A stretch of 32,000 nt of DNA, taken from the NCBI GenBank assembly GCA_022646745.1, contig CP060262.1:3900001-3932000 (forward strand), given 5' to 3'. A model generated the notes under the pieces. It did no database searches, had not been told where the DNA came from, and saw only the letters and a program-made list of their open reading frames with translations. A program made the translations under genes and the position numbers. Below are positions 7,689 through 31,879 of the stretch, piece after piece. How positions within the stretch are numbered: position 1 is the first letter of the stretch; each line of letters begins with the position of its first letter. Source of the DNA: Planctomycetales bacterium (GTDB taxonomy: Bacteria > 4484-113 > JAFGCY01).

Positions 7689-8165
7689 ATGACTGACAAC
7701 GCCAATCCAGATGCCAGGCCACAGGCCCGCATCAACTTCATCTACCTGCACGCGACTGACATGGAGGCGATGCGTGCCTTCTACAAGGATGCGCTGGGCT
7801 GCAGCGAGATCCACTACCGGCCGGTGGATGAGCATGGCTACGGCTGGTCGGTGATCGACATGGGCTGCTTCCAGTTCATGATCCATCCTGACAAGTCAGC
7901 CGTGAAGCTGGAGGGCTGGAGCATGCAGCCGGGCTGGGACGGCGGGACGGTACCGGGGATTTCCTGGAGCGTCGTTGTCAGGAATGAGGACATGCCGCAG
8001 GTGATTGTCAGGCTGCGTGAGATGCGCGCCCCGGCCTTCGATGAGGAACCGCAGTGGTGCCAGGACAGTTACTGGAGCTACCCGGTGCAGGACCCGATGG
8101 GCAACACGGTGGAAGTGCACAGCATACCGGATGAAAGGCCGGAGAGCACTGTGTGGACTGATTAG
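7689..8165 (+). CDS. VOC (glyoxalase/bleomycin-resistance/dioxygenase fold) family protein
   Basis: 158 aa. N-terminal INFIYLHATDMEAMRAFYKDALG is typical of the first beta-alpha-beta-beta-beta module of VOC proteins. GGAGGA Shine-Dalgarno at 7678-7683. Confidence 0.6.
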   Translation: MTDNANPDARPQARINFIYLHATDMEAMRAFYKDALGCSEIHYRPVDEHGYGWSVIDMGCFQFMIHPDKSAVKLEGWSMQPGWDGGTVPGISWSVVVRNEDMPQVIVRLREMRAPAFDEEPQWCQDSYWSYPVQDPMGNTVEVHSIPDERPESTVWTD

Positions 8166-8237: not shown

Positions 8238-9635
8238 CTACAGGCCGTGGATCGCGCGGCCGTCCACCGCAAACGCCGCTTCCTTCACCGCTTCGCTCAG
8301 CGTCGGGTGAGCATGGCAGGTGCGCGCGATATCCTCAGCGCTGGCCTTGAACTCCATCGCCGTGGCGCATTCCGCGATCAGGTCGCCGGCCTGTGGGCCG
8401 ATGATGTGCACACCGAGTACGCGGTCCGTCTTCGCATCCGCGAGGATCTTCACGCTGCCATCCGTTTCGTTCATTGAGTGCGCACGGCCATTGGCCTTGA
8501 AGATGAACTTGCCGGCCTTGAACTCGATGCCGGCCTCCTTAAGCTCCTCCTCGGTCTTGCCAACCGTGGCGATCTCAGGGTGCGTGTAGACGATGCCGGG
8601 AATCACGTCGTAGTTCACGTGGCCATAGCCTGTGGCGATCAGCTCCACGCAGGCGATGCCTTCCTCCTCAGCCTTGTGTGCGAGCATCGGGCCGTGGATC
8701 ACGTCGCCGATCGCGAAAATGCCGTCGACATTCGTACGGTAGTGGTCGTCAACCACCACCTGGCCACGCTCATTGAGCTTGACACCGGCTTCCTCGGCCC
8801 CGAGACCGTCCGTGTTGGCCCAGCGGCCGACCACGCTCAGCAGGCGGTCGCATTCCACCGGGTCCTGGCCCTCGATCTCGACGATCACCTTCTTGCCCTT
8901 GACCTTGGCACCGGTGACCTTGGTCCCGAGGCGGAACTCGAGTCCCTGCTTCTTCATCACGCGCAGGCTCTCGCGGGCCAGGCCGCTGTCCATGCCGGGC
9001 AGGATGCGGTCGAGGTACTCAAGCACGATCACCTTGCTGCCGAGCCGGTGCCAGACACTGCCAAGCTCCAGGCCGATGTAGCCGGCACCGATCACGACGA
9101 GGGTCTCCGGCACATCCGGGAAGCTCAGGCCGCCCTTCGAACCGCAGATGCGGTCGTTGTCAATTTCCACGCCCCTGAGCTGGGCCGGCTTGGAGCCGGT
9201 GGCGATCATGATGCGCGCGGTCTCGTAGACCTGCTTGTTGCCATCGAAGTCCGTCACCTCGACCTTGCCCGCCGACACAATCCGTCCGCTGCCACGCAGC
9301 CCGGTGACGCCGTTCTTCTTGAACAGGCCGTCAATCCCGCCGGCGTTGATCTGCACAACCTTGTCCTTGCGTGCCATCATCTGCGCCAGGTTGAGCTTGA
9401 CGCCCTTGACCTCGATGCCGTGGTCGCCCAGCAGGTCCTTCGCCTGGTGGTAGCGGTAGCTGCTCTCCAGCAGCGCCTTGCTCGGGATGCAGCCCACGCG
9501 CAGGCAGGTGCCGCCGAACAGCTCGTTCTTGTCAACGCAGGCCGTCTTCAGGCCGAGCTGGCCGGCACGGATCGCGGCGACGTAGCCGCCCGGGCCGCCG
9601 CCGATGACAATCAGGTCGAATTTCTCGTTGCTCAT
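8238..9635 (-). CDS. lpdA: Dihydrolipoyl dehydrogenase (E3 component)
   Basis: FAD-binding fold DLIVIGGGPGGY, redox-active disulfide GGTCLRVGCIPSK, NAD-binding fold VVIGAGYIGLE, C-terminal interface HAHPTLSE. I chose the ATG at 9635 (MSNEKFDL...) preceded by GGGGAATGAG. The track's GTG at 9647 lies inside a hairpin. Confidence 0.95.
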   Translation of the reverse strand: MSNEKFDLIVIGGGPGGYVAAIRAGQLGLKTACVDKNELFGGTCLRVGCIPSKALLESSYRYHQAKDLLGDHGIEVKGVKLNLAQMMARKDKVVQINAGGIDGLFKKNGVTGLRGSGRIVSAGKVEVTDFDGNKQVYETARIMIATGSKPAQLRGVEIDNDRICGSKGGLSFPDVPETLVVIGAGYIGLELGSVWHRLGSKVIVLEYLDRILPGMDSGLARESLRVMKKQGLEFRLGTKVTGAKVKGKKVIVEIEGQDPVECDRLLSVVGRWANTDGLGAEEAGVKLNERGQVVVDDHYRTNVDGIFAIGDVIHGPMLAHKAEEEGIACVELIATGYGHVNYDVIPGIVYTHPEIATVGKTEEELKEAGIEFKAGKFIFKANGRAHSMNETDGSVKILADAKTDRVLGVHIIGPQAGDLIAECATAMEFKASAEDIARTCHAHPTLSEAVKEAAFAVDGRAIHGL

Positions 9636-9645
9636 CTCATTCCCC

Positions 9646-9664
9646 ACAGCAGGCGAACTGCTGT
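9646..9664 (-). other. Intercistronic hairpin immediately upstream of the lpdA ribosome-binding site
   Basis: On the minus strand, ACAGCAG-TTCGC-CTGCTGT forms a perfect 7-bp stem with a 5-nt loop. It is followed directly by GGGGAATGAGATG, the lpdA SD and start. Confidence 0.4.
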
Positions 9665-9709: not shown

Positions 9710-10021
9710 TCAGCCCTTGTGGGCATTCCAGGCGTCGAAGCCGCCCTTGAGCACGTATGCGTTGTTCCAGCCTTCCCTCGTGTACTTGACTGCCCGACCG
9801 ACAGCTGACGAATCGCCATGTCAATCTCAATAGAAGACGATTTCGCGGTCGCGGTCCAGCTCGTCCTGGATCTTGACGAACTCGTACATCGGGATCGCCG
9901 GCTCGATGCGTGTCGCATTGTAGCCAGCCTCCATCATGTACGTGTTGATCACGAGGATGTCAGGGTTCTCGGCAAGCCGCTGTTTCAGCTCGCTGACCGT
10001 CATATGCTTCAGGTCTGACAT
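9710..10021 (-). CDS. Single-domain rhodanese-like sulfurtransferase interrupted by two in-frame TGA codons (9827-9829 and 9821-9823) in the active-site loop; candidate selenoprotein, alternatively a pseudogene
   Basis: One continuous frame reads MSDLKHMTVSELKQRLAENPDILV...DRDREIVFY-TGA-D-TGA-HGDSSAVGRAVKYTREGWNNAYVLKGGFDAWNAHKG-TGA, about 103 codons, which is normal rhodanese size. The HGDSS...GGFDAW spacing resembles E. coli GlpE (CYHGNSS...GGFEAW). A strong SD, AAGGAGGA, lies 6 nt upstream of the ATG at 10021. The gene sits 14 nt after the sucB stop. Confidence 0.5.
9790..9804 (-). promoter_or_regulatory. Short mRNA hairpin downstream of the two TGAs; weak SECIS-like candidate
   Basis: On the minus strand, CUGUC-GGUCG-GGCAG forms 5 bp (6 with a flanking G-U). 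It starts 16 nt after the second UGA and 22 nt after the first. The loop contains GGUC. The stem is short compared with characterised bacterial SECIS elements. Confidence 0.25.
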
Positions 10022-10035
10022 GCGGTTCCTCCTTG

Positions 10036-11253
10036 CTAGATTTCCAGTAGCATGCGTGACGGGTCCTCGATGCAGTCCTTGATGCGCCTGAGGAATGTCA
10101 CGCTTTCACGTCCGTCGATCACGCGGTGGTCATAGGTCAGCGCCACGTACATGATCGGCCGGATCTTCACCTCGCCATTGATGGCGACGGGTCGCTCGAC
10201 GATGTTGTGCAGCCCGAGGATGCCGGACTGTGGCGGGTTGAGGATAGGCGTTGACATCATTGAGCCGTACACACCACCGTTTGAGATGGTGAAGGTACCG
10301 CCCTCCAGCTCTTCGAGCTCGATGTCATTGGCCTGGGCCCGCTTCGCGAAGTCGGCGATTGCCAATTCAGTCTGGGCGAAGCTGAGCAGCTCGGCATTGC
10401 GGATCACGGGTACCACGAGGCCCTTGCCACCACCGATCGCCACGCCGATGTCGTAGTAATTGTGGTAGACCAGGTGGCCGTCATCGGTGATTTCCGCATT
10501 GACCTGCGGGAACTCCTTGAGGGCGTCGATCGCGGCCTTGGCGAAGAAGCTCATGAAGCCGAGCTTGATGCCGTACTTCTTCTCGAAGCTGTCCTTGTAG
10601 CGGTTGCGCAGTTCCATCACCGCGCTCATGTCAATCTCGTTGAAGGTCGTCAGCTGGGCGGTACCCTGCTTGCTTTCCACCAGGCGGCGCGCGATGGTCT
10701 TGCGCATCGGGCTCATGCGCACCTTCTCGACACTGCGCGGTCCCTGCGGGGCAGAGCTATCGCGGGCGGCCTCGGTGTACTTCGCCGGTGTCGCGGCCTC
10801 GGCATCCTCCTTGAGGATGCGGCCGTCCTTGCCATTGCCCTTCACATCCGCGGCATCGATGCCCTTCTGGGCAAGGATGCGCTGGGCGGAGGGCATTGCC
10901 ACTCCGGCGGAACCGTTGTCAGACTTTGATGCAGCCGGGGCTTCCTGCTTCGGAGCTTCAGCCCTGGGAGCCTCCTGCTTCGGCTGCTCCTGCGGCTTCT
11001 CGTCCGCCGGGGCCTCGGCCTCCTCCATCGTGGCAATCACCTCGCCGATCTCGCAGGGCTCGCCGGCCGGCTTGAGGATCTTCGTGATGATGCCGGAGAT
11101 CGGAGCCGGCAGCTCCATCGAGGCCTTGTCTGACTCCAGTTCACAGATGAAGTCATCCTCCTCGACGTAGTCACCTTCCTTCTTCATCCATTCAGAGACG
11201 ATCACCTCGGTCACCGACTCTCCGGCGCTCGGGATCCTGATTTCCACAGCCAT
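10036..11253 (-). CDS. sucB: Dihydrolipoyllysine-residue succinyltransferase (E2 of 2-oxoglutarate dehydrogenase)
   Basis: 405 aa. N-terminal lipoyl domain with [12 protein letters not shown], an Ala/Pro/Glu-rich linker, an E3-binding segment ([13 protein letters not shown]), and a catalytic domain ending in [18 protein letters not shown] upstream of the ATG at 11253. Confidence 0.95.
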
Positions 11254-11274: not shown

Positions 11275-14100
11275 CTAGGAACCGGCCTCTTCAGCCTGCT
11301 CCCCGGTGATGGCGAAGCTGATCAGTCGCTTCTGCTCCGCCTTGTGCACGGTCTCCGATCCGCTGGCCGGGCTCGGGCTGGCCGGCCGGCTGACAACGCT
11401 GAACGGATGGCCCGCGAATTCATTGCCCCACTTAACGCGCAGGAAGCGCCAGGCACCGAAGTTCTCCGGCTCCTCCTGTACCCAGACCAGCGGGGTGCCG
11501 GCCTTGTACTTCTTCAGTTCCTTCTTGAGGCTGGCATCCGGCAGTGGATAGATCTGCTCCAGGCGCAGGATCGCCACATTGCTCAGGCCGCGTGCCTCAC
11601 GCTCGGCCTCCAGCTCGTAGTACACCTTGCCGCTGCACAGCAGGATGCGTGAGACATCACGGTCCTGGTCGGGCAGGATATCGGGCAGCACTCGCTGGAA
11701 GCGCCGCTCGGACAGGTCATCCCAGTCAGACACCACGCGCGGGTGGCGGAACAGGCTCTTCGGTGACATCACGATCAGCGGCTTGCGCCAGATGCCCTTC
11801 ACCTGGCGGCGCAGCAGGTGGAAGATCTGCGCCGGGGTAGTCACGTTGACGACCTGCATGTTGTCATTCGCACACAGGGTCAGGAAGCGCTCAAGCCTTG
11901 CGCTGGAGTGCTCACTGCCCATTCCCTCACTGCCGTGCGGCAGCAGCATCACGAGGCCGGTGAGGTACTCCCACTTCTCCTCGCAGCTTGAGATGAACTG
12001 GTCGATGATCACCTGGGCCGTGTTGACGAAGTCGCCGAACTGGGCCTCCCAGATCACGAGCGCATCCGGGTAGTCCAGGCTGTAGCCAAACTCGAAGCCG
12101 AGCACGCCGGCCTCTGACAACGGGCTGTTGTAGATCCGCACCGGGGCCTGGCCCGTCGAGACATGCTGCAAGGGGCGGTACATCTCGCCGGTCTCCTGGT
12201 CGTGGATCACGGCATAGCGGTGGGCGAAGGTGCCGCGCTCGCAGTCCTGGCCGCTCATGCGCACCGGGATGCCCTCATCCGCCAGGCTGGCGTAGGCCAG
12301 CGCCTCGGCGGCGCTCCAGTCCAGCGGGGCCTCGCCATCCAGCATCTGCTGGCGCTTGGCATTGTGCTTCACCACGTTGTCATGCGGATGGAAGCCCTCC
12401 GGCAGCCTGATGGTGGCCGCCAGCAGCTCACGCAGGCGCGGTTCCGGCACACGGGTGTCAACCTTGAACAGGTCGCTGTCCAGCCCGCCCTTGTAGTGCG
12501 CCCAGACTTCGGCCAGCGTGCCGTGAGGGCTTTCGACTTCAGGCTTCTCGTCATTCTTGAGGAGATTCAGGTCCTCGCTGAGGGTGCTGCGGCGCTCCTT
12601 GGCAATCGCCTGCGCTTCTGCGCGGGTGATGCCGTTGAGCTTGAGCAGCTTCTCCTGGTAGTTGTCCTTCACCGAGGGGTGCGCCTTGATCTGCTTGTAC
12701 ATCAGCGGCTGGGTGAGCATCGGCTCATCCTGCTCGTTGTGCCCCCAGTAGCGGAAGCAGTACATGTCGATCACCACGTCGGTCTGGAAGCGCTGGCGGT
12801 AGTCCATCGCAACGTTGACGACCTGGGCCACGGCCTCCGGGTCCTCACCGTTGACGTGGAAGATCGGCACCTCGAGCATCTTGGCGATGTCGGAGGCGTA
12901 GGTCGTCGAGCGGGAGTCCGCCGGGTCAGTGGTGAAGCCGAGCTGGTTGTTGACGATGATGTGCAGGGTGCCGCCGGTGCGGTAGCCCTTGAGCTGGCTC
13001 AGGTTGAGCGTCTCCTGCACGATGCCCTCGCCGATGAAGGCCGCGTCGCCGTGGATCATGATGCCCAGCCCGTTGCGGCGCTCGTTGTCTCCATGGCGGT
13101 CCATGTTGGCACGGACGCGGCCACTGACGACGGGATTGACAAATTCAAGGTGGCTCGGGTTGAAGCACAGTGACAGGTGCATCTCCCTGCCGTTGTCACA
13201 TTGATACTTCGTGCCGTAACCAAGGTGGTACTTCACGTCACCGCGCTTGTTCTCGTAATGCGGGTGCGTGCCCAGGAACTCCTGGAAGATCTCATAGGGG
13301 CGCTTGCCCAGCAGGTTGATCAGCACGTTCATGCGGCCGCGGTGCGACATGCCGATTATCACGCCGTTCATGTCGTTCTCGCCGGCCTTCTCGAGCGCCA
13401 TGTAGAGCAGCGGCATCAGGGTCTCGCCGCCCGAGAGCGAGAAGCTCTTCTTGCCCATGAATTTCTTGAAGATGAAGTCCTCAAGGATGGTGGCGTCGAT
13501 CAGGATCTGCAGGATCTTGCGCTGCATGGTGGCGCTCATCTCGAGCCTGTTGCGTGTGCTTTCCATGCGCTGCTCGAGCCAGTCCTGCTTCTCCGTCGAG
13601 TTGATGTGCATGAACTGCACACCGATGCTGCGACAGTAGGTCTCGCGCATCGCCTCGATGATCTCGCGCAGGGTGAGCGTATCCGGACCCGCGATCGTCT
13701 TGGAGCTGAAGCGCTTCTCCATGTCGGCTTCGGTGAAGCCGTAGTAGTCCGGGTCGAGCTCTTCGAAGTGCGGGCGCGGGCGGCCCAGCGGGTCCAGCTT
13801 GGCGATCATGTGCCCACGGACACGGAACAGGCGGACCAGCTGGTCCACGCGATCCTGCAGGTCCGCAGCCGCCATGCTGGCGCCGTTGCTGCCATGGCCA
13901 TTGCCGTTGAAGATGCTGCGCGCGGGAAAGCTCGGTCCGAGCTGGAATTCCCTGGCGCCGCTGTCCCCGTTACCCTCGAAGGACGCAAAGTACCTGCGCC
14001 AGCTCTCGGAAACGCTCTGAGGATCCCTCAGGTAGTCCTCATACAGGCCTTCCATGAAGGCCAGGCTCTGAACATCCAATGATTGGTCAGGATTATCCAT
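11275..14100 (-). CDS. sucA: 2-oxoglutarate dehydrogenase E1 component
   Basis: About 941 aa from the ATG at 14100 (MDNPDQSLDVQSLAFMEGLYEDYLRDPQSVSESWRRYF, a typical E1o N-terminus). ThDP-binding region GDAAFIGEGIVQETLNLS, and conserved blocks throughout. The upstream GTG at 14160 would add an AT-rich, atypical 20-aa extension. Confidence 0.95.
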   Translation of the reverse strand: MDNPDQSLDVQSLAFMEGLYEDYLRDPQSVSESWRRYFASFEGNGDSGAREFQLGPSFPARSIFNGNGHGSNGASMAAADLQDRVDQLVRLFRVRGHMIAKLDPLGRPRPHFEELDPDYYGFTEADMEKRFSSKTIAGPDTLTLREIIEAMRETYCRSIGVQFMHINSTEKQDWLEQRMESTRNRLEMSATMQRKILQILIDATILEDFIFKKFMGKKSFSLSGGETLMPLLYMALEKAGENDMNGVIIGMSHRGRMNVLINLLGKRPYEIFQEFLGTHPHYENKRGDVKYHLGYGTKYQCDNGREMHLSLCFNPSHLEFVNPVVSGRVRANMDRHGDNERRNGLGIMIHGDAAFIGEGIVQETLNLSQLKGYRTGGTLHIIVNNQLGFTTDPADSRSTTYASDIAKMLEVPIFHVNGEDPEAVAQVVNVAMDYRQRFQTDVVIDMYCFRYWGHNEQDEPMLTQPLMYKQIKAHPSVKDNYQEKLLKLNGITRAEAQAIAKERRSTLSEDLNLLKNDEKPEVESPHGTLAEVWAHYKGGLDSDLFKVDTRVPEPRLRELLAATIRLPEGFHPHDNVVKHNAKRQQMLDGEAPLDWSAAEALAYASLADEGIPVRMSGQDCERGTFAHRYAVIHDQETGEMYRPLQHVSTGQAPVRIYNSPLSEAGVLGFEFGYSLDYPDALVIWEAQFGDFVNTAQVIIDQFISSCEEKWEYLTGLVMLLPHGSEGMGSEHSSARLERFLTLCANDNMQVVNVTTPAQIFHLLRRQVKGIWRKPLIVMSPKSLFRHPRVVSDWDDLSERRFQRVLPDILPDQDRDVSRILLCSGKVYYELEAEREARGLSNVAILRLEQIYPLPDASLKKELKKYKAGTPLVWVQEEPENFGAWRFLRVKWGNEFAGHPFSVVSRPASPSPASGSETVHKAEQKRLISFAITGEQAEEAGS

Positions 14101-14263
14101 ATCCCGATAAGGCCAAATTCCTGATTTCCCGGCAGACAATATAAACAAAACAGCCCTCACCCGACCCTGCGGAAACAGTGTGGGTGAAGGTCAAACCTCA
14201 CCGGGATGCATACCTCTGGCTTCTGAAGTGTACCATCGGTATAAGGTGCGATATCGTGCCTTA

Positions 14264-14339: not shown

Positions 14340-15542
14340 TTACTCCATCTCAAGTGAGTACTGTTCACTCAGATTCAGACCCTTTGAGCGAATTTCCAGG
14401 CGGCCGGCATGGATTTCCATCAATCCACCGGTAATCCAGCGTGGATTGACCGACTGGCCGCTTAGTTCGTGGCCCAGCCGGTTGCGCAGCTGCAGGAAAC
14501 TGTCCGCCGGCGGGGCACTGGCTTTTGGATCGAGCTCCGCCATAGCCTGCCCCAGAGGATCGTCCGCACTACCGATGGATTCAATTGCGGTGTTCCAGAC
14601 GATATGGCTTTTGGGGTTGCTCACTACCGCCGTTCCAAGGCGCGAGGCACTGCCCAGTCCGAGTCCGATGTAGTCCCCGCCCTGCCAATAGCGGATGTTG
14701 TGCATGCTTTCATGACCTGGCATGGCATAGTTGTTGACTTCATAGCGGTAGTGGCCATAGCCGCGCAGCAGGCATTCCACGGCGTGCTGCTGGTACAGCA
14801 CATCCCGGTCTGAAGGGATCTGCTGCGGGTAGCGCATGGCCCAGCGTGTGTAGGCGGTATGCGGCTCAGGTACCAGCCAATAGGCGGAGAAATGCGGCGG
14901 GCGGAATTCAAGCAGCCTGCGGCCACTTTCCAGCAATGTGCCGACACTCTGGTTGGGCAGGCCGTAGATCAGGTCGAAGCTGTAGTTGCGGATCGGACCA
15001 TCCGCCACCATCTCCAGCACCGGAACCGTCTCGGCCCAGCGGTGGGTGCGCCCCATGAACTTCAGCAGGCGGTCGTTTGAGGACTGGATGCCGATTGACA
15101 GCCGGTTAACGCCGGACTCGTGCATCGCTGCCAGTTTCTCCTGGTCAAGTGTGTCCGGATTGGCTTCGCAGGAGAATTCGACAGGGCCCCCTGCGGTAGG
15201 GAAACTGCTCATCAGTTCGCTGGCAATCCGTGCCAGGTCTGCCGCCGGGAGCATTGTCGGAGTACCGCCACCGATGAAGATGCTGTCCACGCGACGGCCA
15301 GTGCCTGCCAGTCTTGCCGTCAACCAGGCCCCGCGCGCTTCGATCTCGCGCAGCAGGCTGGATTCGTAACTGGCCTCGTCCAATCCCCTGGGGCGCTTCG
15401 GGCCGAACTTGAGGAAGTCGCAGTAGGTACAGATCGCCGGACAGAACGGGATGTGAACGTACACACCGAGGTTGCGTCTGAGCGCGGTGATGTCCCAGTT
15501 GCGCCACGGCCGGCGGATGCGCACGAATCTTGCCACCCGCAT
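14340..15542 (-). CDS. hemW: Radical SAM heme chaperone HemW / oxygen-independent coproporphyrinogen-III oxidase-like protein
   Basis: 400 aa. VYVHIPFCPAICTYCDF contains the CxxxCxxC radical-SAM cluster motif. IFIGGGTP and RLSIGIQS are characteristic of the HemN/HemW family. C-terminal HemN_C-like region. Confidence 0.8.
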   Translation of the reverse strand: MRVARFVRIRRPWRNWDITALRRNLGVYVHIPFCPAICTYCDFLKFGPKRPRGLDEASYESSLLREIEARGAWLTARLAGTGRRVDSIFIGGGTPTMLPAADLARIASELMSSFPTAGGPVEFSCEANPDTLDQEKLAAMHESGVNRLSIGIQSSNDRLLKFMGRTHRWAETVPVLEMVADGPIRNYSFDLIYGLPNQSVGTLLESGRRLLEFRPPHFSAYWLVPEPHTAYTRWAMRYPQQIPSDRDVLYQQHAVECLLRGYGHYRYEVNNYAMPGHESMHNIRYWQGGDYIGLGLGSASRLGTAVVSNPKSHIVWNTAIESIGSADDPLGQAMAELDPKASAPPADSFLQLRNRLGHELSGQSVNPRWITGGLMEIHAGRLEIRSKGLNLSEQYSLEME

Positions 15543-25690: not shown

Positions 25691-26875
25691 TCAGGCGCCC
25701 TGGCTTGTGATCGGCAGTCCTACACGCCACAGCGTGACCGGCAGGTTGGTCTGCACACTGAGGTCGACGAGCCAGCACTGGCGGTCGTGCGCCGGGATTA
25801 TACGCATGCCTGTCTGCAAGCCCTGGTACAGCCAGAGCCGGTTGCCTGCGGAGTCATAACAGAACAGCAGTCCGGTGACGGGGGTTGCCACCATTGATGT
25901 TGCATTTGGAGATCCGGCAGTGGGATCCGGATACTCCGCCGGGAAACCGCTTACGAATGTCTCACCGTTGAGGCCAGCCACGATGTCACGCACGACGAGA
26001 TCATCCGGCCACCGGAGTGCAAGCGACTGCCCATCAGCATCGAGGCCCTGCAAGCCATCGCCGATCCGCAGCCACAGGTTGCCTCCGCTGCTGCGCAATT
26101 CCCTGATCTCTGCTCCTGGCAATGCATTCCAAAGCACTTCGCCGGATGGATCCGCGCACTCCACACCGCCGTCAATTGCGGGATAGGCAATCCTCCCCGC
26201 ATCCAGCAGGCCGGCATGGTGGCTGGCACTGTACTTCTTCCAGCGCAGTTCACCCTCCAAGTCCAGGCAGTACAGGAACCCGTCGTCACTTGCCGCATAG
26301 GCATTGCCATCATCCAGCAGCAGGCGGGCCGGCGCTCCCATCAGGAAATTCCATTGCTCCTGCCCTTCGTAACTGAAACAGGTCACGGACTGTTCAAGGA
26401 TCGTCGTCAACAGCACATCATCCAGCAATATACATGTGTCGGCAGCGGGATACTGCGAACCGGGCCAGAATGGCTCCGGTGTCCAGAGTTCACCGCTGCG
26501 GGCGAAGCCGGTATCCGGGACATCGTTGCGCCAGACCTCGAGGTAGCCGTCTCGCCGGGTTGTTGCCAGCCAGCCGTCCGGTCCCAGCAGCAGTTCACGG
26601 TCGGCCAGCACCTCCTGGTCGGGCAGCATCATCGGCCGGCTGCCGTAGTAGTTCCAGCCACCCAGTGAGGCATCGTCCTCAATCAGTCCATCGTTGAAGT
26701 TCATCATCACTCGCAGCCGGTTGCCGGCCTGCAGCTGGTAATGGCCGCCGGGGTAATCGCCACTGGCCAGCTCCATCGCCTTTGGCACGCGGCTCTTGCC
26801 AGCCTGCCCGCTGCAGCCTGTAAGCAGGCTGATTGAAATGAGAACTGCGAACGAAAAACTTGCCAGCCGGCTCAT
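25691..26875 (-). CDS. Lipoprotein, PQQ-like (BamB-type) beta-propeller repeat protein; paralog P1
   Basis: 394 aa. Lipobox SLLTGC-SG. Repeated blades such as CFSYEGQEQWNF, LYCLDLEGELRWKK, VECADPSGEVLWNA, LFCYDSAGNRLWLY. The start overlaps the P2 stop by 4 nt. Confidence 0.7.
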   Translation of the reverse strand: MSRLASFSFAVLISISLLTGCSGQAGKSRVPKAMELASGDYPGGHYQLQAGNRLRVMMNFNDGLIEDDASLGGWNYYGSRPMMLPDQEVLADRELLLGPDGWLATTRRDGYLEVWRNDVPDTGFARSGELWTPEPFWPGSQYPAADTCILLDDVLLTTILEQSVTCFSYEGQEQWNFLMGAPARLLLDDGNAYAASDDGFLYCLDLEGELRWKKYSASHHAGLLDAGRIAYPAIDGGVECADPSGEVLWNALPGAEIRELRSSGGNLWLRIGDGLQGLDADGQSLALRWPDDLVVRDIVAGLNGETFVSGFPAEYPDPTAGSPNATSMVATPVTGLLFCYDSAGNRLWLYQGLQTGMRIIPAHDRQCWLVDLSVQTNLPVTLWRVGLPITSQGA

Positions 26876-28098
26876 CGCGCACCTCCCAGCCTGCAGATGC
26901 GGTCAGGCCCGTCATCGCTGACAAGCAGCAGCTTGTCCTCGCCAAAACCGTAGATGCGGTCGCAGTGCAGTTCCAGCCAGACCGGCACATTGACCGGCAC
27001 GCTGAGGGCCGCGGTTTCAAGCTGCAACTGCAGAGTCCCCGCGCTGGATGAAGATACGTAAGCGAACTCGAAGTCCGGCAACTCGCCACGCATCATCCCG
27101 CTGAGCATGCCTGGCAGGCCTGCCAGCAGCGGATACTGCGCGCGGCCGGCATACATCAGCAGCTGGTCATCCTGGATCGCCGTGCCATCCAGCAGGTACA
27201 GCTCGCTCAGTTCAGTGCTGCGTGTCTCGGTCCCATCCACGCTGTAGCGTGCATACTTGCCATCCCGGAAGCGGGCGATGCCATCCTCTGTCAGCCAGCA
27301 GTACCTGCTTGGTCCGGCGCTGTAACTGCTGAGCTGGCCCAGCTGACTGGCAACAAGCTTCCCGTCCAGCCTGCTGAGGCTGGTGCTCCTGCCCCGCTCC
27401 AGCACCATGCCACTTTCGGCCAGCTCAATCCCGGAGACATCCCAGATGTTGCCACCTCCGACCAGCTCCATCTGCCCGTCCCGACTGACCCGCACACGTC
27501 CGCCATTGGAGACAGTCTGCAGGTTTCCCTCACTGTCCACCTCCATCCAGGGCCGGCTGGCCAGAATAGATGTCGCATTGGGTATCCTGCGGACCCAGAG
27601 CTTCTTGCCATTGGCATCAAGCCCGTAAACCAGGGCGGTTGCCATAGTGAAGAATGTCGCCTGCGCTTCGTTGCCTCGACGCACGCGAGTATGCATTTCA
27701 TTGTGTACAGGCTCGTAACGCCAGGATTCCGATCCCTCTGCATCGATTGCGATAGCCCTGCCATAGCGACCGGTCAGCACCATCAGGCCATCCCCTGCCT
27801 GCACGCTGCTGAGTGTGAAATGGGCCGGTGCCGCGAATTGCCAGTCCAGCCTGCCTTCCGTGCTGATCCGCGTTATTCGGCCGGAACGCTCCTGCAGTAC
27901 CAGGCCGCCCAGTCCATCGTCAATCGGTTCAAGCAGCAGCTCGCCGAAATCCGGATCGCCAAGTGTATGCAGGCTCAGCAGTTCATTCGGACTGAACAGG
28001 CGGGATGCAAGCATCATCAGCATGCCGGCCAACCAGCAAAGCAGCAGCGCGGCACTCACCATCACGGCCCTGCGTTGCCAGCGCTGCATTGTATCCAT
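26872..28098 (-). CDS. N-terminally membrane-anchored beta-propeller repeat protein; paralog P2
   Basis: 408 aa. Signal-anchor AVMVSAALLLCWLAGMLMMLA. Blades ISTEGRLDWQF, AIAIDAEGSESWRY, VYGLDANGKKLWVR. The C-terminal block LHCDRIYGFGEDKLLLVSDDGPDRICRL is shared with P4. Confidence 0.7.
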   Translation of the reverse strand: MDTMQRWQRRAVMVSAALLLCWLAGMLMMLASRLFSPNELLSLHTLGDPDFGELLLEPIDDGLGGLVLQERSGRITRISTEGRLDWQFAAPAHFTLSSVQAGDGLMVLTGRYGRAIAIDAEGSESWRYEPVHNEMHTRVRRGNEAQATFFTMATALVYGLDANGKKLWVRRIPNATSILASRPWMEVDSEGNLQTVSNGGRVRVSRDGQMELVGGGNIWDVSGIELAESGMVLERGRSTSLSRLDGKLVASQLGQLSSYSAGPSRYCWLTEDGIARFRDGKYARYSVDGTETRSTELSELYLLDGTAIQDDQLLMYAGRAQYPLLAGLPGMLSGMMRGELPDFEFAYVSSSSAGTLQLQLETAALSVPVNVPVWLELHCDRIYGFGEDKLLLVSDDGPDRICRLGGAR

Positions 28099-28109
28099 GA
28101 CCTGATTCT

Positions 28110-28136
28110 AGCTCAGCGGGGCACTGTCCCTGAGCT
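28110..28136 (-). other. Strong intercistronic hairpin between propeller modules
   Basis: On the minus strand, AGCTCAGGG-ACAGTG-CCC(G)CTGAGCT forms 10 bp with one bulge. It lies between the P3 stop (28172) and the P2 start (28098). No T-tract. Confidence 0.45.
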
Positions 28137-28171
28137 TTCCCTCCCATTACATGACTGGATCACCAACAGTG

Positions 28172-29311
28172 TTACTCGGGTGCGGAAAGCAGGACGAGGC
28201 CCTGCTTATCCTGCGTTGCGGTAAACAAGGTGCCATTGCTTCCGGTATGGGCAAAATAGGGGTAACCTTCCATCTTTTCACCGCGCCAGAGTACCTTTCC
28301 CTGTGGATTGATGCACAGCCAGTGGAAGGGAGTATTCACACGGTTTGCTATCCGGCCCCCAAACCAGCTGTTGCGGAAATCCCTGTCATAGATCCTCAAA
28401 AAGGTGTATCCATCCCTGGAAAGCTCCAAACTGGACCAGCCAATTGATTCCAGCCTGCAGCGCCAGAGCCGCTTTCCATCCGCATCGTAGCAATCAACCC
28501 CCCAGCTCCGCTGGATCGCAAATCGATTTCCGGCATCATCGACTTTTGCATACACGTGGCCCAGCTTCTCACCGGAGTGATCCTGGATCCAGAGTTCCGT
28601 TCCTTCCCAATCCAGGCATACGAGGTTCAGTGAATCAGATCCCGTGACAAGTATCCTGTCACCGAAGGCCTGAGCCTGCTGCACACCCTTGCGGGTCCAG
28701 CTGACCCGCCCCTGGCTGTCCAGGCAGGCAAGCTCCCCGTCCCGCCCGAACACCAGCAGGTGCTGGTAGTCCTGCGACTGGCTGAAGCTGATCATGTATC
28801 CGCCCATGTATTCCCAGCTGGGATTGCCCTGCTGGTCAAATCCGACAATCTGCTGCTGGTCATACATCACGAACGGATCCGTTCCGAGGAAGCCCATGCT
28901 GCCATCCTGGCCGGAGTACCTGACAAAGTTGCCAGAACTTCCATCAGATGCGGTATCCGGCCGACTCAGCAATACTGAGTCATTGCCACGGTCGCTGAAA
29001 ACGAGCCGCACCCCGCCACTGGGCCCGTTGTCGGGGAAGAGGTACTGTCCGTCCGGCCCCGCTACCATCTCGGTCAGCTGGCTCGAATAGACCGGGTAGC
29101 CCTGTTGCGATGCCTGGCTGGCGGTTGGCTTGTCACCTGCCTCCTTCTCCGCATCGATGCTGAGCATGCCGCTGCCCTGCCAGTTGAGCACAGTATTGTC
29201 ATCTGAAACAAGCATCGGCCCGAGCACATTCAGTTCACGCTCCATGGCAACAGGAACCCTGCCGCAGGATACCAGTAGCAGCAATGCCATCAACAGGACA
29301 GCGCTATACAT
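28172..29311 (-). CDS. Lipoprotein, PQQ-like beta-propeller repeat protein; paralog P3
   Basis: 379 aa. Lipobox LLLVSC-GR. Blades IVGFDQQGNPSWEY, LACLDSQGRVSWTR, LVCLDWEGTELWIQ, VDCYDADGKRLWRC, LCINPQGKVLWRG. The start overlaps the P4 stop by 8 nt. Confidence 0.7.
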   Translation of the reverse strand: MYSAVLLMALLLLVSCGRVPVAMERELNVLGPMLVSDDNTVLNWQGSGMLSIDAEKEAGDKPTASQASQQGYPVYSSQLTEMVAGPDGQYLFPDNGPSGGVRLVFSDRGNDSVLLSRPDTASDGSSGNFVRYSGQDGSMGFLGTDPFVMYDQQQIVGFDQQGNPSWEYMGGYMISFSQSQDYQHLLVFGRDGELACLDSQGRVSWTRKGVQQAQAFGDRILVTGSDSLNLVCLDWEGTELWIQDHSGEKLGHVYAKVDDAGNRFAIQRSWGVDCYDADGKRLWRCRLESIGWSSLELSRDGYTFLRIYDRDFRNSWFGGRIANRVNTPFHWLCINPQGKVLWRGEKMEGYPYFAHTGSNGTLFTATQDKQGLVLLSAPE

Positions 29312-30599
29312 CGGCAGCCTCCAGCGCCAGGCACCTGAGCTGCTTGTCGTTGCTGATCAGGTAGATCCGGTCCTTGCTGCAGTGCATCGCCGAGAAGCCG
29401 TTGAAGTTCTGCCCGCTGCCGATATCCAGTGCAGCCAGCCTCTCCCCTTCGCGGATCACTTCCAAGCGGAACACCTGGGACTGCTGCAGCCTCGGATTCA
29501 GCTGGCCGGCAGCCGGCGAAGCGAAAGGCAGGGCTGCAGAGACCATGGGAAACAAGGCGGACAGGTGTTCCAGTGCGGTCAGCAGGTTGTCAGTCCTGCC
29601 CGTCACCAGTGCGAATGCATCCCCCAGGTCCTGGGCATCCGAAACACTGCCGGCTTCAAGTGGAATGCTCCATTGCTCCTCAAGCTGGTAGTCCAGCGCA
29701 CGCACCACGGCATCACTGGTCGGCACGAGGATCAGCCCGGCTGAACTGGCAACCTGGTTGGGACTGATGTAGAAACCGGGCGATGTACCCAGCTGATTGA
29801 TCTTCTTGTGGATCTGCTCCCCGTCCCTGACCAGGCAGAGCTGGTTGCCACCGGAGTACAGCAGTTCGCCGTTGCCGACAACTCCACGCAGGTCCAGTAT
29901 CTCCCCGCTGAAGTAGATCTGCTGTCCACCGGCCGTCTTCGCGGGAGTTTTCGGCTTGCTGGGACGTTCGAGCGGAATGCGCTCGCCACTAATTGTGTAA
30001 ATGCTCACGCTGGAGAAATCGTTGCACAGGAAGCTGTAGCTGCCGGCGTACTCGAAATAGCTTGGCAGCCCAAACGGGTCATACATCTGCCTGGTATTGA
30101 CAACCCAGCATGGCTCGCCGGCCGCGCTGATTCCGTAGAGCAGGATGCCCTGCTTGAGGAAGGCGACCGCCTGGCTGCCTTCCCGTGGCTCAAGCAATTC
30201 ACGGTACCGCTGCGGATCGGGCCGGCAGTTCCACAGTTCCTGTCCCTGTGCATCGAGGGCAAGCAGCTCACCCTTGCCTGTGGTCAGGTAGGTGATGGCA
30301 TCTACCCGCTGGATCGGTGAGCGGATACTGTCAATCGTGTGCTCCCGGCTCCATAACACCCTGCCATCGGGAGTGATCATCTGGAGCTGTCCGGCCAGCA
30401 TGTCCTGGGTGTAGACAAGGCAGCCATCTTCGGATGCATCCACTACGGCACACCATGTCGCATCAAGCTGCCTGCTCCAGAGCTGCGTGAGCCCACTGTC
30501 CCTGCCGATTGCCAGCCTGAGCGTAATCCAGCCAGCCGCCCACAGCACGGCGTAAACTGCAATTGCCAGCACCATTTTCCGGTGGATCCTGCTTGCCAT
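29304..30599 (-). CDS. N-terminally membrane-anchored beta-propeller repeat protein; paralog P4
   Basis: 431 aa. Signal-anchor MVLAIAVYAVLWAAGWITL. Blades MITPDGRVLWSR, LLALDAQGQELWNC. C-terminal block MHCSKDRIYLISNDKQLRCLALEAA. AGGGAA lies upstream of the ATG. Confidence 0.7.
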   Translation of the reverse strand: MASRIHRKMVLAIAVYAVLWAAGWITLRLAIGRDSGLTQLWSRQLDATWCAVVDASEDGCLVYTQDMLAGQLQMITPDGRVLWSREHTIDSIRSPIQRVDAITYLTTGKGELLALDAQGQELWNCRPDPQRYRELLEPREGSQAVAFLKQGILLYGISAAGEPCWVVNTRQMYDPFGLPSYFEYAGSYSFLCNDFSSVSIYTISGERIPLERPSKPKTPAKTAGGQQIYFSGEILDLRGVVGNGELLYSGGNQLCLVRDGEQIHKKINQLGTSPGFYISPNQVASSAGLILVPTSDAVVRALDYQLEEQWSIPLEAGSVSDAQDLGDAFALVTGRTDNLLTALEHLSALFPMVSAALPFASPAAGQLNPRLQQSQVFRLEVIREGERLAALDIGSGQNFNGFSAMHCSKDRIYLISNDKQLRCLALEAADV

Positions 30600-30697
30600 G
30601 TTTCCCTGCCAGTCCCTGCAAAGATGCCCGTTCAGTTATTGCTCCGGGCAAACAATGGTTCAATTGTAAATCAGGACGCTGCCGGACCGTCCCGGGT

Positions 30698-31879
30698 TCA
30701 GAAGCCACGCCACATGGAACCCGGCGGGCCATGGAAGGTGAGTACGCTGTTGTTCCCCACCTCGAACTGGCCGATCAGACCACCGGAGAAGGTCAGGGCT
30801 CCGTGGCTGCGCACCATCTCCCCATCGGCGGCCTGCCAGATGACCTGCCCGTCGGGATCCACACAGAACCCAAGCTCAGAGATGCGGAACGGGAACATCC
30901 CTTCGCGCTCGACAGAGCCGTTGTAGGCTTGCTGGTAACGGACAAAGGCAAACATATGACCGTCCGGCGCACCAACGAAGTAGGAGAAGCCGGTGTCGCC
31001 AACCGGCAGTTCGGTACGCCACAGCTCCTCACCTGCCGTGCTGATGCATAGTGCGGTCCTGCGATAATCGTGAGCAAAAATCCGTCCATTGGACACGGCG
31101 GTCGGCAGGCAGGTAATGTCCATCTCGAGCTCCCATAGCAGCTTGCCATCGCTGTCCAGGGCTCGAAGCCTGCCGTCAGTGCTGTAACCGTAGAAGCTGC
31201 TGCCATCCGTCACGCAGCTCTGCATTTCGGGATTGCTCCAGAGCAATTCTCCGTTCCCGTCCAGCGCAAGGATCATCCCGTAGAAGCAGCTGATATACAG
31301 CCTTTCCCCATTCGTACTCGATTGGAGTTGGGCATTGCTCCCTACATTGAATTCCCAAAGCGGATTGCCCTGCAGGTCGAATGCTCCGAGCATCTGTGCG
31401 TCATCGTCGGCAATCACCACCATCCCGTCCAGGAACGCCGCCTCATTGCCAAACTGGCAGTCAAAGGAACGGCCATAGGTTGACAGCGTAAGTTCGGTTT
31501 CCAGCGGCACCATCACGGACGGGTCCGCCCGCGACACAAGCAGGGGCCGGGAGTATGAATCAGTGATGGCCAACCAGTCGTCATTCCAGCCGCGGATCTC
31601 GAGTCGACCGGGATTGAATGTCATTTCCGAGCCATCCGGCCAGACGGCATCCATGCCTGTACCCTGTGCAATCAGCTGCTCCGGTTCACCGGGCACCATG
31701 CGATAAAGGCTGAAAGTCGGCATGTCCAGTGAAAGGATGCTGCCATCCTCCAGCTCGGCATAGTAGTAACCGGAGAGGGAGTAACTGCGCGTGTCTGATG
31801 CCGGCAGCACTTCAGGCTGGGCTTGCAACATAGCTGATGGGATGGCAACAAGCAGCAGTGCGATGACGAGCGCTTTCAT
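30698..31879 (-). CDS. Secreted PQQ-like beta-propeller repeat protein; paralog P5
   Basis: 393 aa. Sec signal MKALVIALLLVAIPSAMLQA with no lipobox Cys. Blades LGAFDLQGNPLWEF, ILALDGNGELLWSN, LRALDSDGKLLWEL, LCISTAGEELWRT, CVDPDGQVIWQA. GGAGG lies 8 nt upstream. The ATG overlaps the upstream stop (ATGA). Confidence 0.7.
   Translation of the reverse strand: MKALVIALLLVAIPSAMLQAQPEVLPASDTRSYSLSGYYYAELEDGSILSLDMPTFSLYRMVPGEPEQLIAQGTGMDAVWPDGSEMTFNPGRLEIRGWNDDWLAITDSYSRPLLVSRADPSVMVPLETELTLSTYGRSFDCQFGNEAAFLDGMVVIADDDAQMLGAFDLQGNPLWEFNVGSNAQLQSSTNGERLYISCFYGMILALDGNGELLWSNPEMQSCVTDGSSFYGYSTDGRLRALDSDGKLLWELEMDITCLPTAVSNGRIFAHDYRRTALCISTAGEELWRTELPVGDTGFSYFVGAPDGHMFAFVRYQQAYNGSVEREGMFPFRISELGFCVDPDGQVIWQAADGEMVRSHGALTFSGGLIGQFEVGNNSVLTFHGPPGSMWRGF

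What the first reader, a model, noticed from the sequence alone, without database searches (positions are those of the whole stretch)
9710..10021. Rhodanese-like gene with two in-frame TGA codons inside its catalytic loop: candidate selenocysteine (possibly di-Sec) sulfurtransferase
Read straight through, a single frame gives a normal-length (~103 codon) single-domain rhodanese: ...DRDREIVFY-[TGA]-D-[TGA]-HGDSSAVGRAVKYTREGWNNAYVLKGGFDAWNAHKG. The only two interruptions are both TGA. They lie two codons apart, where the catalytic Cys loop of rhodaneses belongs: after the hydrophobic strand ending in Tyr and just before HG[ND]SS (compare E. coli GlpE ...VMCYHGNSS...GGFEAW, recalled from memory). 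The downstream 36 codons keep family motifs and the correct spacing. The gene has the best Shine-Dalgarno in this operon (AAGGAGGA, 6 nt from the ATG). TGA is a genuine stop elsewhere in the window (both ABC genes, the HAD gene and the SpoIID-domain gene end in TGA), so global recoding does not explain it. Sec/Cys exchange at catalytic Cys positions is the classic signature of bacterial selenoproteins, and rhodanese-related selenoproteins have been predicted from metagenomes. Caveat on alignment: by eye, the loop is one residue longer than GlpE's if the first TGA is the nucleophile, and one residue shorter if it is the second. I cannot say which TGA (or both) would be Sec. The N-terminal half is divergent (NTY instead of the usual D[VI]R).
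Basis: partly seen in the sequence, partly recalled or inferred. Interest (0 to 1): 0.78.

Follow-up and report, generated by a model that had tools for sequence, protein, structure and literature searches.

The report
Two-selenocysteine rhodanese gene in 2-oxoglutarate dehydrogenase operon
The two in-frame TGA codons are real, conserved and followed by a selenocysteine-insertion hairpin, so this is very probably a small rhodanese-type selenoprotein with a Sec-Asp-Sec centre; the protein type was predicted in 2007, but its fixed place between the E2 and E3 genes of 2-oxoglutarate dehydrogenase seems not to have been described.

Summary
Window 10021..9710 (-) is a 103-codon single-domain rhodanese (Pfam PF00581). 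TGA occupies codons 65 and 67, and the gene lies between sucB and lpd.

- Both TGAs and the downstream frame are kept in seven distinct orthologues (59-98% identity) from independent assemblies, under purifying selection.
- The gene belongs to a large family (over 2,000 database clusters) whose gene calls stop at this spot. In 80 metagenome loci the motif is UxU (52) or CxU (27). True Cys forms (CxC) also exist, so each TGA has a Cys counterpart.
- A 6-bp hairpin with loop GGUC(G/A) lies 21 and 27 nt after the two UGAs. It is the same loop as in the E. coli fdhF SECIS. It is conserved, shows compensatory changes, and has near-frozen synonymous sites.
- TGA is an ordinary stop for other genes in the window.

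The family, including its UxU form, is already published (Zhang & Gladyshev 2007; NCBIfam NF041203). This gene is therefore a new member of a known kind.

The apparently new point is the conserved order sucA-sucB-rhodanese-lpd, which holds across lineages whose SucB is only 55% identical. It suggests a lipoyl-linked redox role, which is inference only.

Sec machinery could not be checked.

The parts
9710..10021 (-). Rhodanese-domain selenoprotein gene. It has 103 sense codons plus a TGA stop, Sec at codons 65 and 67, and no Cys anywhere in the protein.
   Evidence: Translation. Pfam PF00581 full-length match. Orthologues keep frame, length and stop.
10027..10034 (-). Shine-Dalgarno AAGGAGGA, 5 nt before the ATG and 2 nt after the sucB stop.
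   Evidence: Read directly from the sequence.
9827..9829 (-). First in-frame UGA (codon 65). This is the canonical rhodanese catalytic-Cys position. Relatives have either Sec or Cys here.
   Evidence: UxU 52 loci, CxU 27 loci. Alignment to BH2092, NoxA-3 and 6mxv.
9821..9823 (-). Second in-frame UGA (codon 67). It is TGA in all 79 metagenome loci where the motif could be read, and Cys only in more distant CxC homologues.
9789..9805 (-). SECIS-type hairpin within the coding sequence. Stem GCUGUC/GGCAGU (6 pairs, 2 of them G-U). Loop GGUCG at 9799-9795. There are 21 nt between the second UGA and the loop, and 27 nt from the first.
   Evidence: It is the MFE hairpin: -7.6 kcal/mol, z -2.7. It sits in the same columns in 76 sequences, with compensatory changes. 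Synonymous sites are frozen. The loop matches the E. coli fdhF SECIS.
10036..11253 (-). sucB, the dihydrolipoyl succinyltransferase (E2). It lies immediately upstream in the same operon.
   Evidence: ORF list. The orthologous genes carry Biotin_lipoyl, E3_binding and 2-oxoacid_dh domains.
11275..14160 (-). sucA, the 2-oxoglutarate dehydrogenase E1 component. The exact start codon is uncertain.
   Evidence: ORF list. Orthologues carry 2-oxogl_dehyd_N, E1_dh, Transket_pyr and OxoGdeHyase_C domains.
8238..9635 (-). lpd, the dihydrolipoyl dehydrogenase (E3). It lies immediately downstream with no terminator in between. The likely start is the ATG at 9635 (465 aa, as called in L009); the mechanical ORF starts at GTG 9647.

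Best explanation
This is a functional selenoprotein gene. While the sucA-sucB-X-lpd mRNA is translated, the UGA codons at positions 65 and 67 are both read as selenocysteine. A single SECIS hairpin inside the coding sequence (6-bp stem, GGUCG loop, 21 and 27 nt downstream of the two UGAs) would recruit SelB carrying Sec-tRNA(Sec). The product is a 103-residue single-domain rhodanese with the active-site loop Y-U-D-U-H-G-D-S. The first Sec sits where rhodaneses have their catalytic Cys, and the second sits two residues further along a loop that is two residues longer than the classical one.

The protein has no cysteine, so the two Sec residues are its only redox-active centre. They most likely cycle between a diselenide and two selenols (or a perselenide/selenopersulfide). 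In other words, the protein would work as a CxC-type redox or sulfane-sulfur transfer centre rather than as a classical thiosulfate:cyanide sulfurtransferase.

The gene belongs to the already predicted [C/U]xU 'rhodanese-related sulfurtransferase' selenoprotein family.

Inferred, not shown: because the gene is fixed between the E2 and E3 genes of 2-oxoglutarate dehydrogenase in divergent lineages, its redox partner is probably the dihydrolipoyl group of E2, recycled by Lpd and NADH. I put about 0.3 on this last step. The confidence given below applies to the selenoprotein reading.
For: 1. Conservation.
- Both TGAs and the downstream 36 codons are retained in seven distinct orthologues (59-98% amino-acid identity) from independent assemblies.
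- dN/dS downstream of the TGAs is 0.08-0.50, while pS reaches 0.52 there.

2. Family pattern.
- 2,561 database clusters match the N-terminal profile. The top 121 end either at ...FY (51) or at ...FYCx (70).
- In 80 metagenome loci the motif is UxU in 52 and CxU in 27.
- Full-length Cys forms exist: CxC in 9 and CxS in 17.
- So position 1 alternates between Sec and Cys. Position 3 is Sec, or Cys in distant relatives.

3. SECIS.
- The hairpin occupies the same columns in 76 sequences. 88% of cells pair over the 7 pairs tested, and each of the six core pairs is intact in 93-100% of sequences.
- Compensatory changes occur: G-C to U-A five times, and U-A to G-U or C-G three times. The covariation score exceeds all 500 shuffles.
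- Third-base entropy at the five hairpin codons is 0.40, 0.11, 0.24, 0 and 0.77 bits, against mostly about 0.8-1.9 bits at other synonymous sites in the gene.
- The hairpin is the MFE fold in every representative tested.
- The GGUC loop equals that of the E. coli fdhF SECIS, where 18 nt lie between the UGA and the loop.

4. TGA is an ordinary stop for other genes in the window, for example both ABC transporters, the HAD hydrolase and the SpoIID-domain protein.

5. Literature. The rhodanese selenoprotein family and its UxU form are published and listed in reviews and NCBIfam as the CxU form.

6. Context.
- sucA-sucB-X-lpd holds in all UDU orthologues with enough flank, and in two CAU relatives whose SucB is only 55-56% identical.
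- The main family has unrelated neighbours.
- Dihydrolipoate is a known sulfane-sulfur acceptor for rhodaneses (PMC6067878).
- NADH -> Lpd -> E2 -> AhpD -> AhpC is a precedent for E2-lipoyl feeding a small redox protein (PMC12028322).
Against: - No selA, selB, selD or tRNA-Sec was found in the window or in the roughly 60 kb of related DNA held. This is uninformative, because only a small part of any genome was available.
- There is no protein-level evidence for any member of the family.
- Covariation in the hairpin is modest, because the stem is highly conserved and also encodes a conserved Ala-Ala/Val-Gly-Gln/Arg-Ala peptide.
- In E. coli, Sec insertion is sensitive to UGA-SECIS spacing (my own knowledge, not checked here). 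Whether one hairpin serves two UGAs 6 nt apart with useful efficiency is therefore unproven.
- The protein scores 54.7 bits against the curated NF041203 model, well under its cut-off of 115.
- The functional link to lipoyl-E2 rests on gene order alone.
Confidence: 0.85

Rival explanations
1. Only one of the two UGAs (the invariant second one) is decoded as Sec. The first is passed by low-level near-cognate read-through, or mostly terminates, so the main products are a 64-residue fragment and a mono-Sec protein.
For: The SECIS position is fixed relative to the second UGA in both CxU and UxU forms. The first UGA therefore sits 6 nt further from the loop than the spacing used in single-Sec relatives. 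The second UGA is the invariant one.
Against: Position 1 alternates only between TGA and Cys codons in 79 loci, which is the classical Sec/Cys signature. TGA at position 1 is kept in seven distinct orthologues despite saturating synonymous divergence. It is also the majority state in the sampled metagenome loci (52 of 80). A spacing of 27 nt is within the 16-37 nt range used for bacterial SECIS prediction (my own knowledge of bSECISearch).
Confidence: 0.06
2. The 64-residue N-terminal fragment is the real product. The TGAs are genuine stops, in a decaying pseudogene or a regulatory short ORF, and the downstream similarity to rhodanese is a remnant.
For: All gene callers stop at codon 64. No Sec machinery was seen.
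Against: The downstream 36 codons are under purifying selection and keep length, frame, family motifs and a conserved stop in all orthologues. The 64-aa part alone is not a complete rhodanese fold and gets no Pfam match. The same architecture recurs in thousands of sequences.
Confidence: 0.04
3. TGA is read as a standard amino acid (Trp or Gly) in this lineage through an alternative genetic code or a suppressor tRNA.
For: Some database entries translate these codons as W. They are gene calls made with a TGA=Trp table.
Against: TGA terminates other genes in the window at the expected ends, including an ATGA stop/start overlap between the two ABC genes. This gene's own conserved stop is also TGA. 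Homologues have Cys at these positions, not Trp or Gly. A SECIS-type hairpin would not be needed under this reading.
Confidence: 0.03
4. The TGAs are sequencing or assembly errors in this window.
For: None.
Against: The same TGA-GAT-TGA occurs in more than 15 contigs from different samples and assemblers (ENA, NCBI, Logan).
Confidence: 0.005

Closest known systems
Rhodanese-related sulfurtransferase selenoprotein family (COG0607 'form 2/3', CxU; UxU variant). Sources: Zhang & Gladyshev 2007, PMC1976440; reviews PMC9312934 and PMC13188914; NCBIfam NF041203 rhodanese_LYCAU.
   Same: Both are single-domain rhodaneses of about 105 aa, with Sec two residues after the catalytic-Cys position and an optional second Sec at that position (UxU). 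NF041203 is the best NCBIfam hit (E 8e-15). All members share the same SECIS position and GGUC loop.
   Different: The score of 54.7 bits is far below the NF041203 cut-off of 115. The motif is FY-U-D-U-H-G-D rather than LY-C-A-U-P. The N-terminal half is divergent (NTYMME instead of VCAYEDE) and contains no Cys. The protein is only 31-36% identical to the main metagenome family. The gene is embedded in the suc operon, which the literature I could search does not mention.
E. coli GlpE / PspE-type single-domain thiosulfate sulfurtransferases (PDB 1gmx)
   Same: Same fold family and size, with the same C-terminal GGxxAW motif.
   Different: GlpE has one catalytic Cys in a six-residue loop. Here the loop is two residues longer, carries two Sec, and lacks the closing Arg/Thr. 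The HGNSS/HGDSS resemblance is out of register with the rest of the alignment.
Bacillus halodurans BH2092 rhodanese-like protein (PDB 3nhv, 3o3w; function unknown)
   Same: It gives a gap-free alignment through the active site. Its loop has the same length (YCWGPAC...) and the same Pro at +3 as the main selenoprotein family ([U/C]xUP). A second Cys lies in the loop.
   Different: It has Gly where this family has the invariant Sec. Its second Cys is at +5, not +2. It contains no selenium.
E. coli fdhF SECIS element
   Same: Both are hairpins inside the coding region just downstream of the UGA, with apical loop GGUC. The UGA-to-loop spacing is 18 nt in fdhF and 21 or 27 nt here.
   Different: The stem here is shorter (6 bp), and no bulged U is evident. 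It would have to serve two UGAs.
Mycobacterium tuberculosis Lpd-DlaT(E2)-AhpD-AhpC relay (functional analogy only)
   Same: A small redox protein with a paired Cys centre is reduced by the dihydrolipoyl arm of an E2, which is recycled by Lpd and NADH (PMC12028322). AhpD-like proteins are also often selenoproteins.
   Different: The fold is unrelated. No peroxiredoxin or other acceptor gene is seen next to this gene. The analogy rests on gene order alone.

Membership tests
Bacterial selenoprotein gene (UGA recoded as Sec) | In-frame UGA conserved among orthologues, with the coding frame and purifying selection continuing downstream | tested here: met
   Seven distinct orthologues keep both TGAs. 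dN/dS downstream is 0.08-0.50.
Bacterial selenoprotein gene (UGA recoded as Sec) | Homologues with Cys at the position aligned with the UGA | tested here: met
   Position 1 is Cys in 27 of 80 loci and in 70 of 121 truncated database proteins. Position 3 is Cys in 9 CxC homologues.
Bacterial selenoprotein gene (UGA recoded as Sec) | SECIS hairpin closely downstream of the UGA with G at the start of the apical loop | tested here: met
   A 6-bp stem with loop GGUCG lies 21 and 27 nt after the UGAs. It is conserved in 76 sequences, shows compensatory pairs, and has suppressed synonymous variation. bSECISearch itself was not available.
Bacterial selenoprotein gene (UGA recoded as Sec) | selA, selB, selC (tRNA-Sec) and selD present in the same genome | not testable with these tools
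   Only 32 kb plus about 60 kb of related contigs were available, with no tRNA and no Rfam hit.
Bacterial selenoprotein gene (UGA recoded as Sec) | Selenium shown in the protein (75Se labelling or mass spectrometry) | not testable with these tools
   This needs an experiment. The literature I could search lists this rhodanese form among selenoproteins that are predicted rather than experimentally verified.
Rhodanese homology domain (Pfam PF00581) | Full-length match above the gathering score | tested here: met
   42.9 bits with U written as C and 38.0 bits with U written as X, against a cut-off of 22.2. Residues 9-100 match profile positions 2-101 of 102.
Rhodanese homology domain (Pfam PF00581) | Nucleophile at the first position of the active-site loop, after the central beta-strand | tested here: met
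   Profile alignments place the first U/C column under the Cys of BH2092, NoxA-3 and 6mxv.
Classical thiosulfate sulfurtransferase (GlpE/Rhd type) | Six-residue loop C-R-x-G-x-[R/T] | tested here: not met
   The loop is U-D-U-H-G-D-S-S. It is two residues longer than those of GlpE, NoxA-3 and 6mxv (gaps), and it has no basic residue.
NCBIfam NF041203 rhodanese_LYCAU (equivalog) | Score at or above the curated cut-off of 115 bits | tested here: not met
   The window protein scores 54.7 bits. The CAU relatives L014 and L098 score 64-69 bits, and main-family members 56-65 bits. NF041203 is the best hit for all of them, but none qualifies.
[C/U]xU rhodanese selenoprotein family as described by Zhang & Gladyshev 2007 | Rhodanese (COG0607-type) domain with a CxU or UxU motif at the active site | tested here: met
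   The U-D-U motif is present. The family-wide pattern is [C/U]xU. The published sequences themselves were not available for a direct comparison.

The most novel reading that the evidence does not exclude
The Sec-Asp-Sec rhodanese is a dedicated fourth component of the 2-oxoglutarate dehydrogenase system in this uncultured lineage. It would be a diselenide relay that exchanges electrons or sulfane sulfur with the dihydrolipoyl arm of E2 (recycled by Lpd and NADH). It could repair persulfidated or over-oxidised lipoyl groups, or divert reducing power to another acceptor. That would give a first physiological role to a widespread selenoprotein family of unknown function, and a direct link between selenium and the TCA cycle.
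Probability: 0.2. Interest if true: 0.65.

Novelty: new member of a known kind. Interest (0 to 1): 0.42.

Why it matters
- It confirms that a reader without tools can spot a true selenoprotein gene from raw sequence.
- It shows that public databases hold thousands of mis-called copies of this family. Some are truncated at 63-68 residues, and some are translated with TGA as Trp.
- It shows that the double-Sec (UxU) form is common rather than a curiosity.
- It gives a clean natural example of one SECIS hairpin placed to serve two UGA codons 6 nt apart.
- The conserved position between the E2 and E3 genes of 2-oxoglutarate dehydrogenase offers a concrete, testable clue to the function of a selenoprotein family that has had none: reduction by dihydrolipoamide or lipoyl-E2.

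Tried and rejected
- Folding the whole 91-nt stretch after the TGAs gave no significant stability (z +0.35). The signal appeared only when the conserved 17-nt hairpin was isolated through comparison with relatives.
- Rfam at gathering thresholds found nothing in the window.
- ARAGORN found no tRNA in the window or in related loci.
- The first homology search, with the full read-through sequence (U as X), found only 5 close truncated orthologues. Profiles were needed to reach the family.
- The first JGI metagenome scan, with the narrow clade alignment, found nothing.
No 3D model was made.
- Extending the window ends through exact-protein look-ups gave only more beta-propeller genes, or no record at all.
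- A scan of the window for other ORFs with in-frame TGA and a coding signal on both sides gave only out-of-frame artefacts.
- I rejected the GlpE-based register (HGNSS = HGDSS), because it needs gaps on both sides, whereas BH2092 aligns without gaps.
- I rejected a possible long-range UUGAC/GUCAA lower stem that would include the second UGA. It exists only in the window clade and competes with the conserved hairpin (and my own reading).
- I considered whether the upstream radical-SAM gene might be the rSAM selenoprotein TIGR04167. It is a HemW-type protein ending in TAA.

Full report
**The observation**

On the minus strand, 10021..9710 reads as one 103-codon frame. It is interrupted only by TGA at codon 65 (9829-9827) and codon 67 (9823-9821), and it ends in TGA at 9712-9710.
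- With the stops masked, the product matches Pfam Rhodanese from end to end (38-43 bits against a cut-off of 22.2). The 64-residue part before the first TGA gives no significant Pfam hit on its own.
- The gene starts 14 nt after the sucB stop, behind an AAGGAGGA ribosome-binding site. It is followed by lpd with no terminator-like site in between. The local order is a HemW-type radical SAM gene, sucA, sucB, the rhodanese gene, then lpd.
- TGA is an ordinary stop here. It ends 12 of the 22 large ORFs tabulated, including real genes with complete domains such as both ABC transporters, the HAD hydrolase and the SpoIID-domain protein. The two ABC genes overlap by ATGA.

**Orthologues**

A database search with the read-through sequence returned only five clusters. 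All are 64 residues long, meaning that gene callers stopped at the first TGA.
- Their contigs come from different samples and assemblers and show the same sucA-sucB-X-lpd order. Read-through translation shows Y-TGA-GAT-TGA-[H/N]-G-D-S in every one, followed by about 36 conserved codons and a stop at the same place.
- A further orthologue at 59% identity (L095) has the same motif and extended synteny with the window.
- The one GTDB species representative that carries the gene is an unclassified MAG.
- Synonymous divergence between these sequences is large (pS up to 0.65 in the N-terminal part and 0.52 in the C-terminal part). dN/dS after the TGAs is 0.08-0.50, similar to the N-terminal part.
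- Errors, pseudogene decay and a 64-residue end product are therefore not tenable.

**The family**

A profile of the N-terminal halves, searched against 1.84 billion representatives, found mostly 60-68-residue proteins. A word-indexed search found 2,561 clusters. The best 121 end either in ...FY (51) or in ...FYCx (70).
- Eighty JGI metagenome loci were fetched and read through. The motif after the Tyr is UxU in 52 (UGU, UAU, URU, UHU, UTU) and CxU in 27. In the remaining locus the contig ends before the motif is complete. The rest of the domain is conserved in frame.
- A full-length profile then brought up 'complete' database proteins. Fifty-two of them show W at these positions. I checked one of them at the DNA level: its W codons are TGA, so it was called with a TGA=Trp table.
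- Genuine Cys forms also exist: CxC in 9 and CxS in 17.
- The first position therefore alternates between Sec and Cys. The second is Sec in all sampled loci, and Cys in more distant homologues.

**SECIS**

In the window clade, a 20-nt stretch (GCUGUCGGUCGGGCAGUCAA) is identical in all sequences, synonymous sites included, while the flanks vary.
- The region aligns without gaps across 76 sequences. Columns 28-33 pair with columns 39-44 around a loop GGUC(A/G).
- 88% of cells pair over the seven pairs tested. Each of the six core pairs is intact in 93-100% of sequences. G-C changes to U-A five times, and U-A changes to G-U or C-G three times. The covariation score beats all 500 shuffles and all slid controls.
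- L014 and L098 add further compensatory pairs.
- Third-base entropy at the five codons of the hairpin is 0.40, 0.11, 0.24, 0 and 0.77 bits, against mostly about 0.8-1.9 bits at other synonymous sites in the gene.
- The hairpin is the minimum-energy fold in each representative tested.
- In the window, the stem is 9805-9800 paired with 9794-9789, and the loop is 9799-9795. There are 21 nt between the second UGA and the loop, and 27 nt from the first.
- The E. coli fdhF SECIS, whose sequence I verified against 5,419 genomes, has the same GGUC loop 18 nt after its UGA.
- The hairpin keeps the same position relative to the second UGA in CxU and UxU forms, and no second hairpin is seen. One element would therefore serve both codons. 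That it does so efficiently is inferred, not shown.

**Where the two Sec residues sit**

A profile of the family aligned to solved rhodaneses puts the first U/C column under the catalytic Cys of NoxA-3 (6pfz), of 6mxv and of BH2092 (3nhv).
- BH2092 (YCWGPAC...) aligns with no gap. GlpE, NoxA-3 and 6mxv need a two-residue gap.
- The first Sec therefore occupies the canonical nucleophile position. The second lies at +2 in a loop two residues longer than the classical CRxGx[R/T], and the closing basic residue is absent.
- The window protein has no Cys at all, so the U-D-U pair is its only redox-active centre. I infer a diselenide/diselenol, or perselenide-carrying, CxC-type centre.

**Comparison with what is known**

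- Zhang and Gladyshev (2007, PMC1976440) list 'rhodanese-related sulfurtransferase' among known selenoprotein families. [quoted passage not shown]
- Later reviews list the CxU form and tie it to NCBIfam NF041203 'rhodanese_LYCAU'.
- NF041203 is the best NCBIfam hit for the window protein, but at 54.7 bits against a cut-off of 115. The CAU relatives and main-family members also fall below the cut-off.
- The gene is thus a divergent new member of a known, so far purely predicted, selenoprotein family. It is not a new kind.

**What seems new**

The gene order sucA-sucB-rhodanese-lpd is kept in all UDU orthologues. It is also kept, once with a DUF3224 gene inserted, in two CAU relatives that share only 36-39% identity in the rhodanese and 55-56% in SucB.
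- The bulk of the family sits next to unrelated genes: molybdopterin-binding subunits, pirin, HtrA-type proteases and aldo/keto reductases.
- A literature search for this link found nothing.
- Rhodaneses can use dihydrolipoate as a sulfane-sulfur acceptor (cited in PMC6067878). In M. tuberculosis, E2-bound lipoamide recycled by Lpd reduces the small redox protein AhpD (PMC12028322).
- I therefore propose, as inference with about 0.3 confidence, that the diselenide centre exchanges with the dihydrolipoyl arm of E2.

**Limits**

- No sel genes or tRNA-Sec could be looked for in a whole genome of the lineage.
- No protein-level data exist.

**Verdict**

This is a new member of a known kind, of moderate interest mainly because of the operon context.

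Noticed in passing
Database proteins P0001-P0239; loci L015-L094 and L102: Thousands of public gene calls for this selenoprotein family are wrong. Most are truncated at 63-68 residues. Others are 'full-length' only because TGA was translated as Trp (CxW or WxW); I verified this at the DNA level for L102. NCBI names some truncated halves 'ArsR family transcriptional regulator'.
   Followed up: partly
window 9646-9664 (-): A 7-bp hairpin (ACAGCAG UUCGC CUGCUGU) lies in the 74-nt spacer between the rhodanese stop and the lpd start, directly before the lpd ribosome-binding region. It has no U-run, so it is not a terminator by the scan. The fold of the whole spacer is not significant. Conservation was not examined.
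   Followed up: partly
window 9635-9647 (-): The mechanical ORF for lpd starts at GTG 9647. The orthologue in L009 is called 4 codons shorter (465 aa), which fits the ATG at 9635 (MSNEKFDL...).
   Followed up: no
window 25691-31879 (-), continuing in L101: There is a tandem array of at least five paralogous genes of about 380-430 aa. Three of the five have weak PQQ_2/BamB-like beta-propeller matches. The array extends beyond the window end by at least three more copies.
   Followed up: no
window 14340-15542 (-); also L009 and L095: A HemW-type radical SAM gene (TIGR00539, above its cut-off) is conserved directly upstream of sucA in this lineage. It has no obvious link to the selenoprotein.
   Followed up: no
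L014 2685-3092: In one CAU-type relative, a DUF3224 gene is inserted between the Sec-rhodanese gene and lpd.
   Followed up: no
L015-L094 (main family): Main-family members carry two further conserved Cys (LLVCAY and VKCLAGG) that the window clade lacks. 17 of 64 sit directly downstream of a molybdopterin-binding (MoCoBD) subunit gene, and 17 of 51 sit upstream of an aldo/keto reductase with a Cys-rich tail.
   Followed up: partly
window 7689-8165 (+): This 158-aa ORF has a strong coding signal (GC3 0.82), no Pfam match, and only a weak sub-threshold hit to methylmalonyl-CoA epimerase (VOC-like). An ORF of similar size (157 aa, no Pfam hit) lies in the corresponding place in L095.
   Followed up: no
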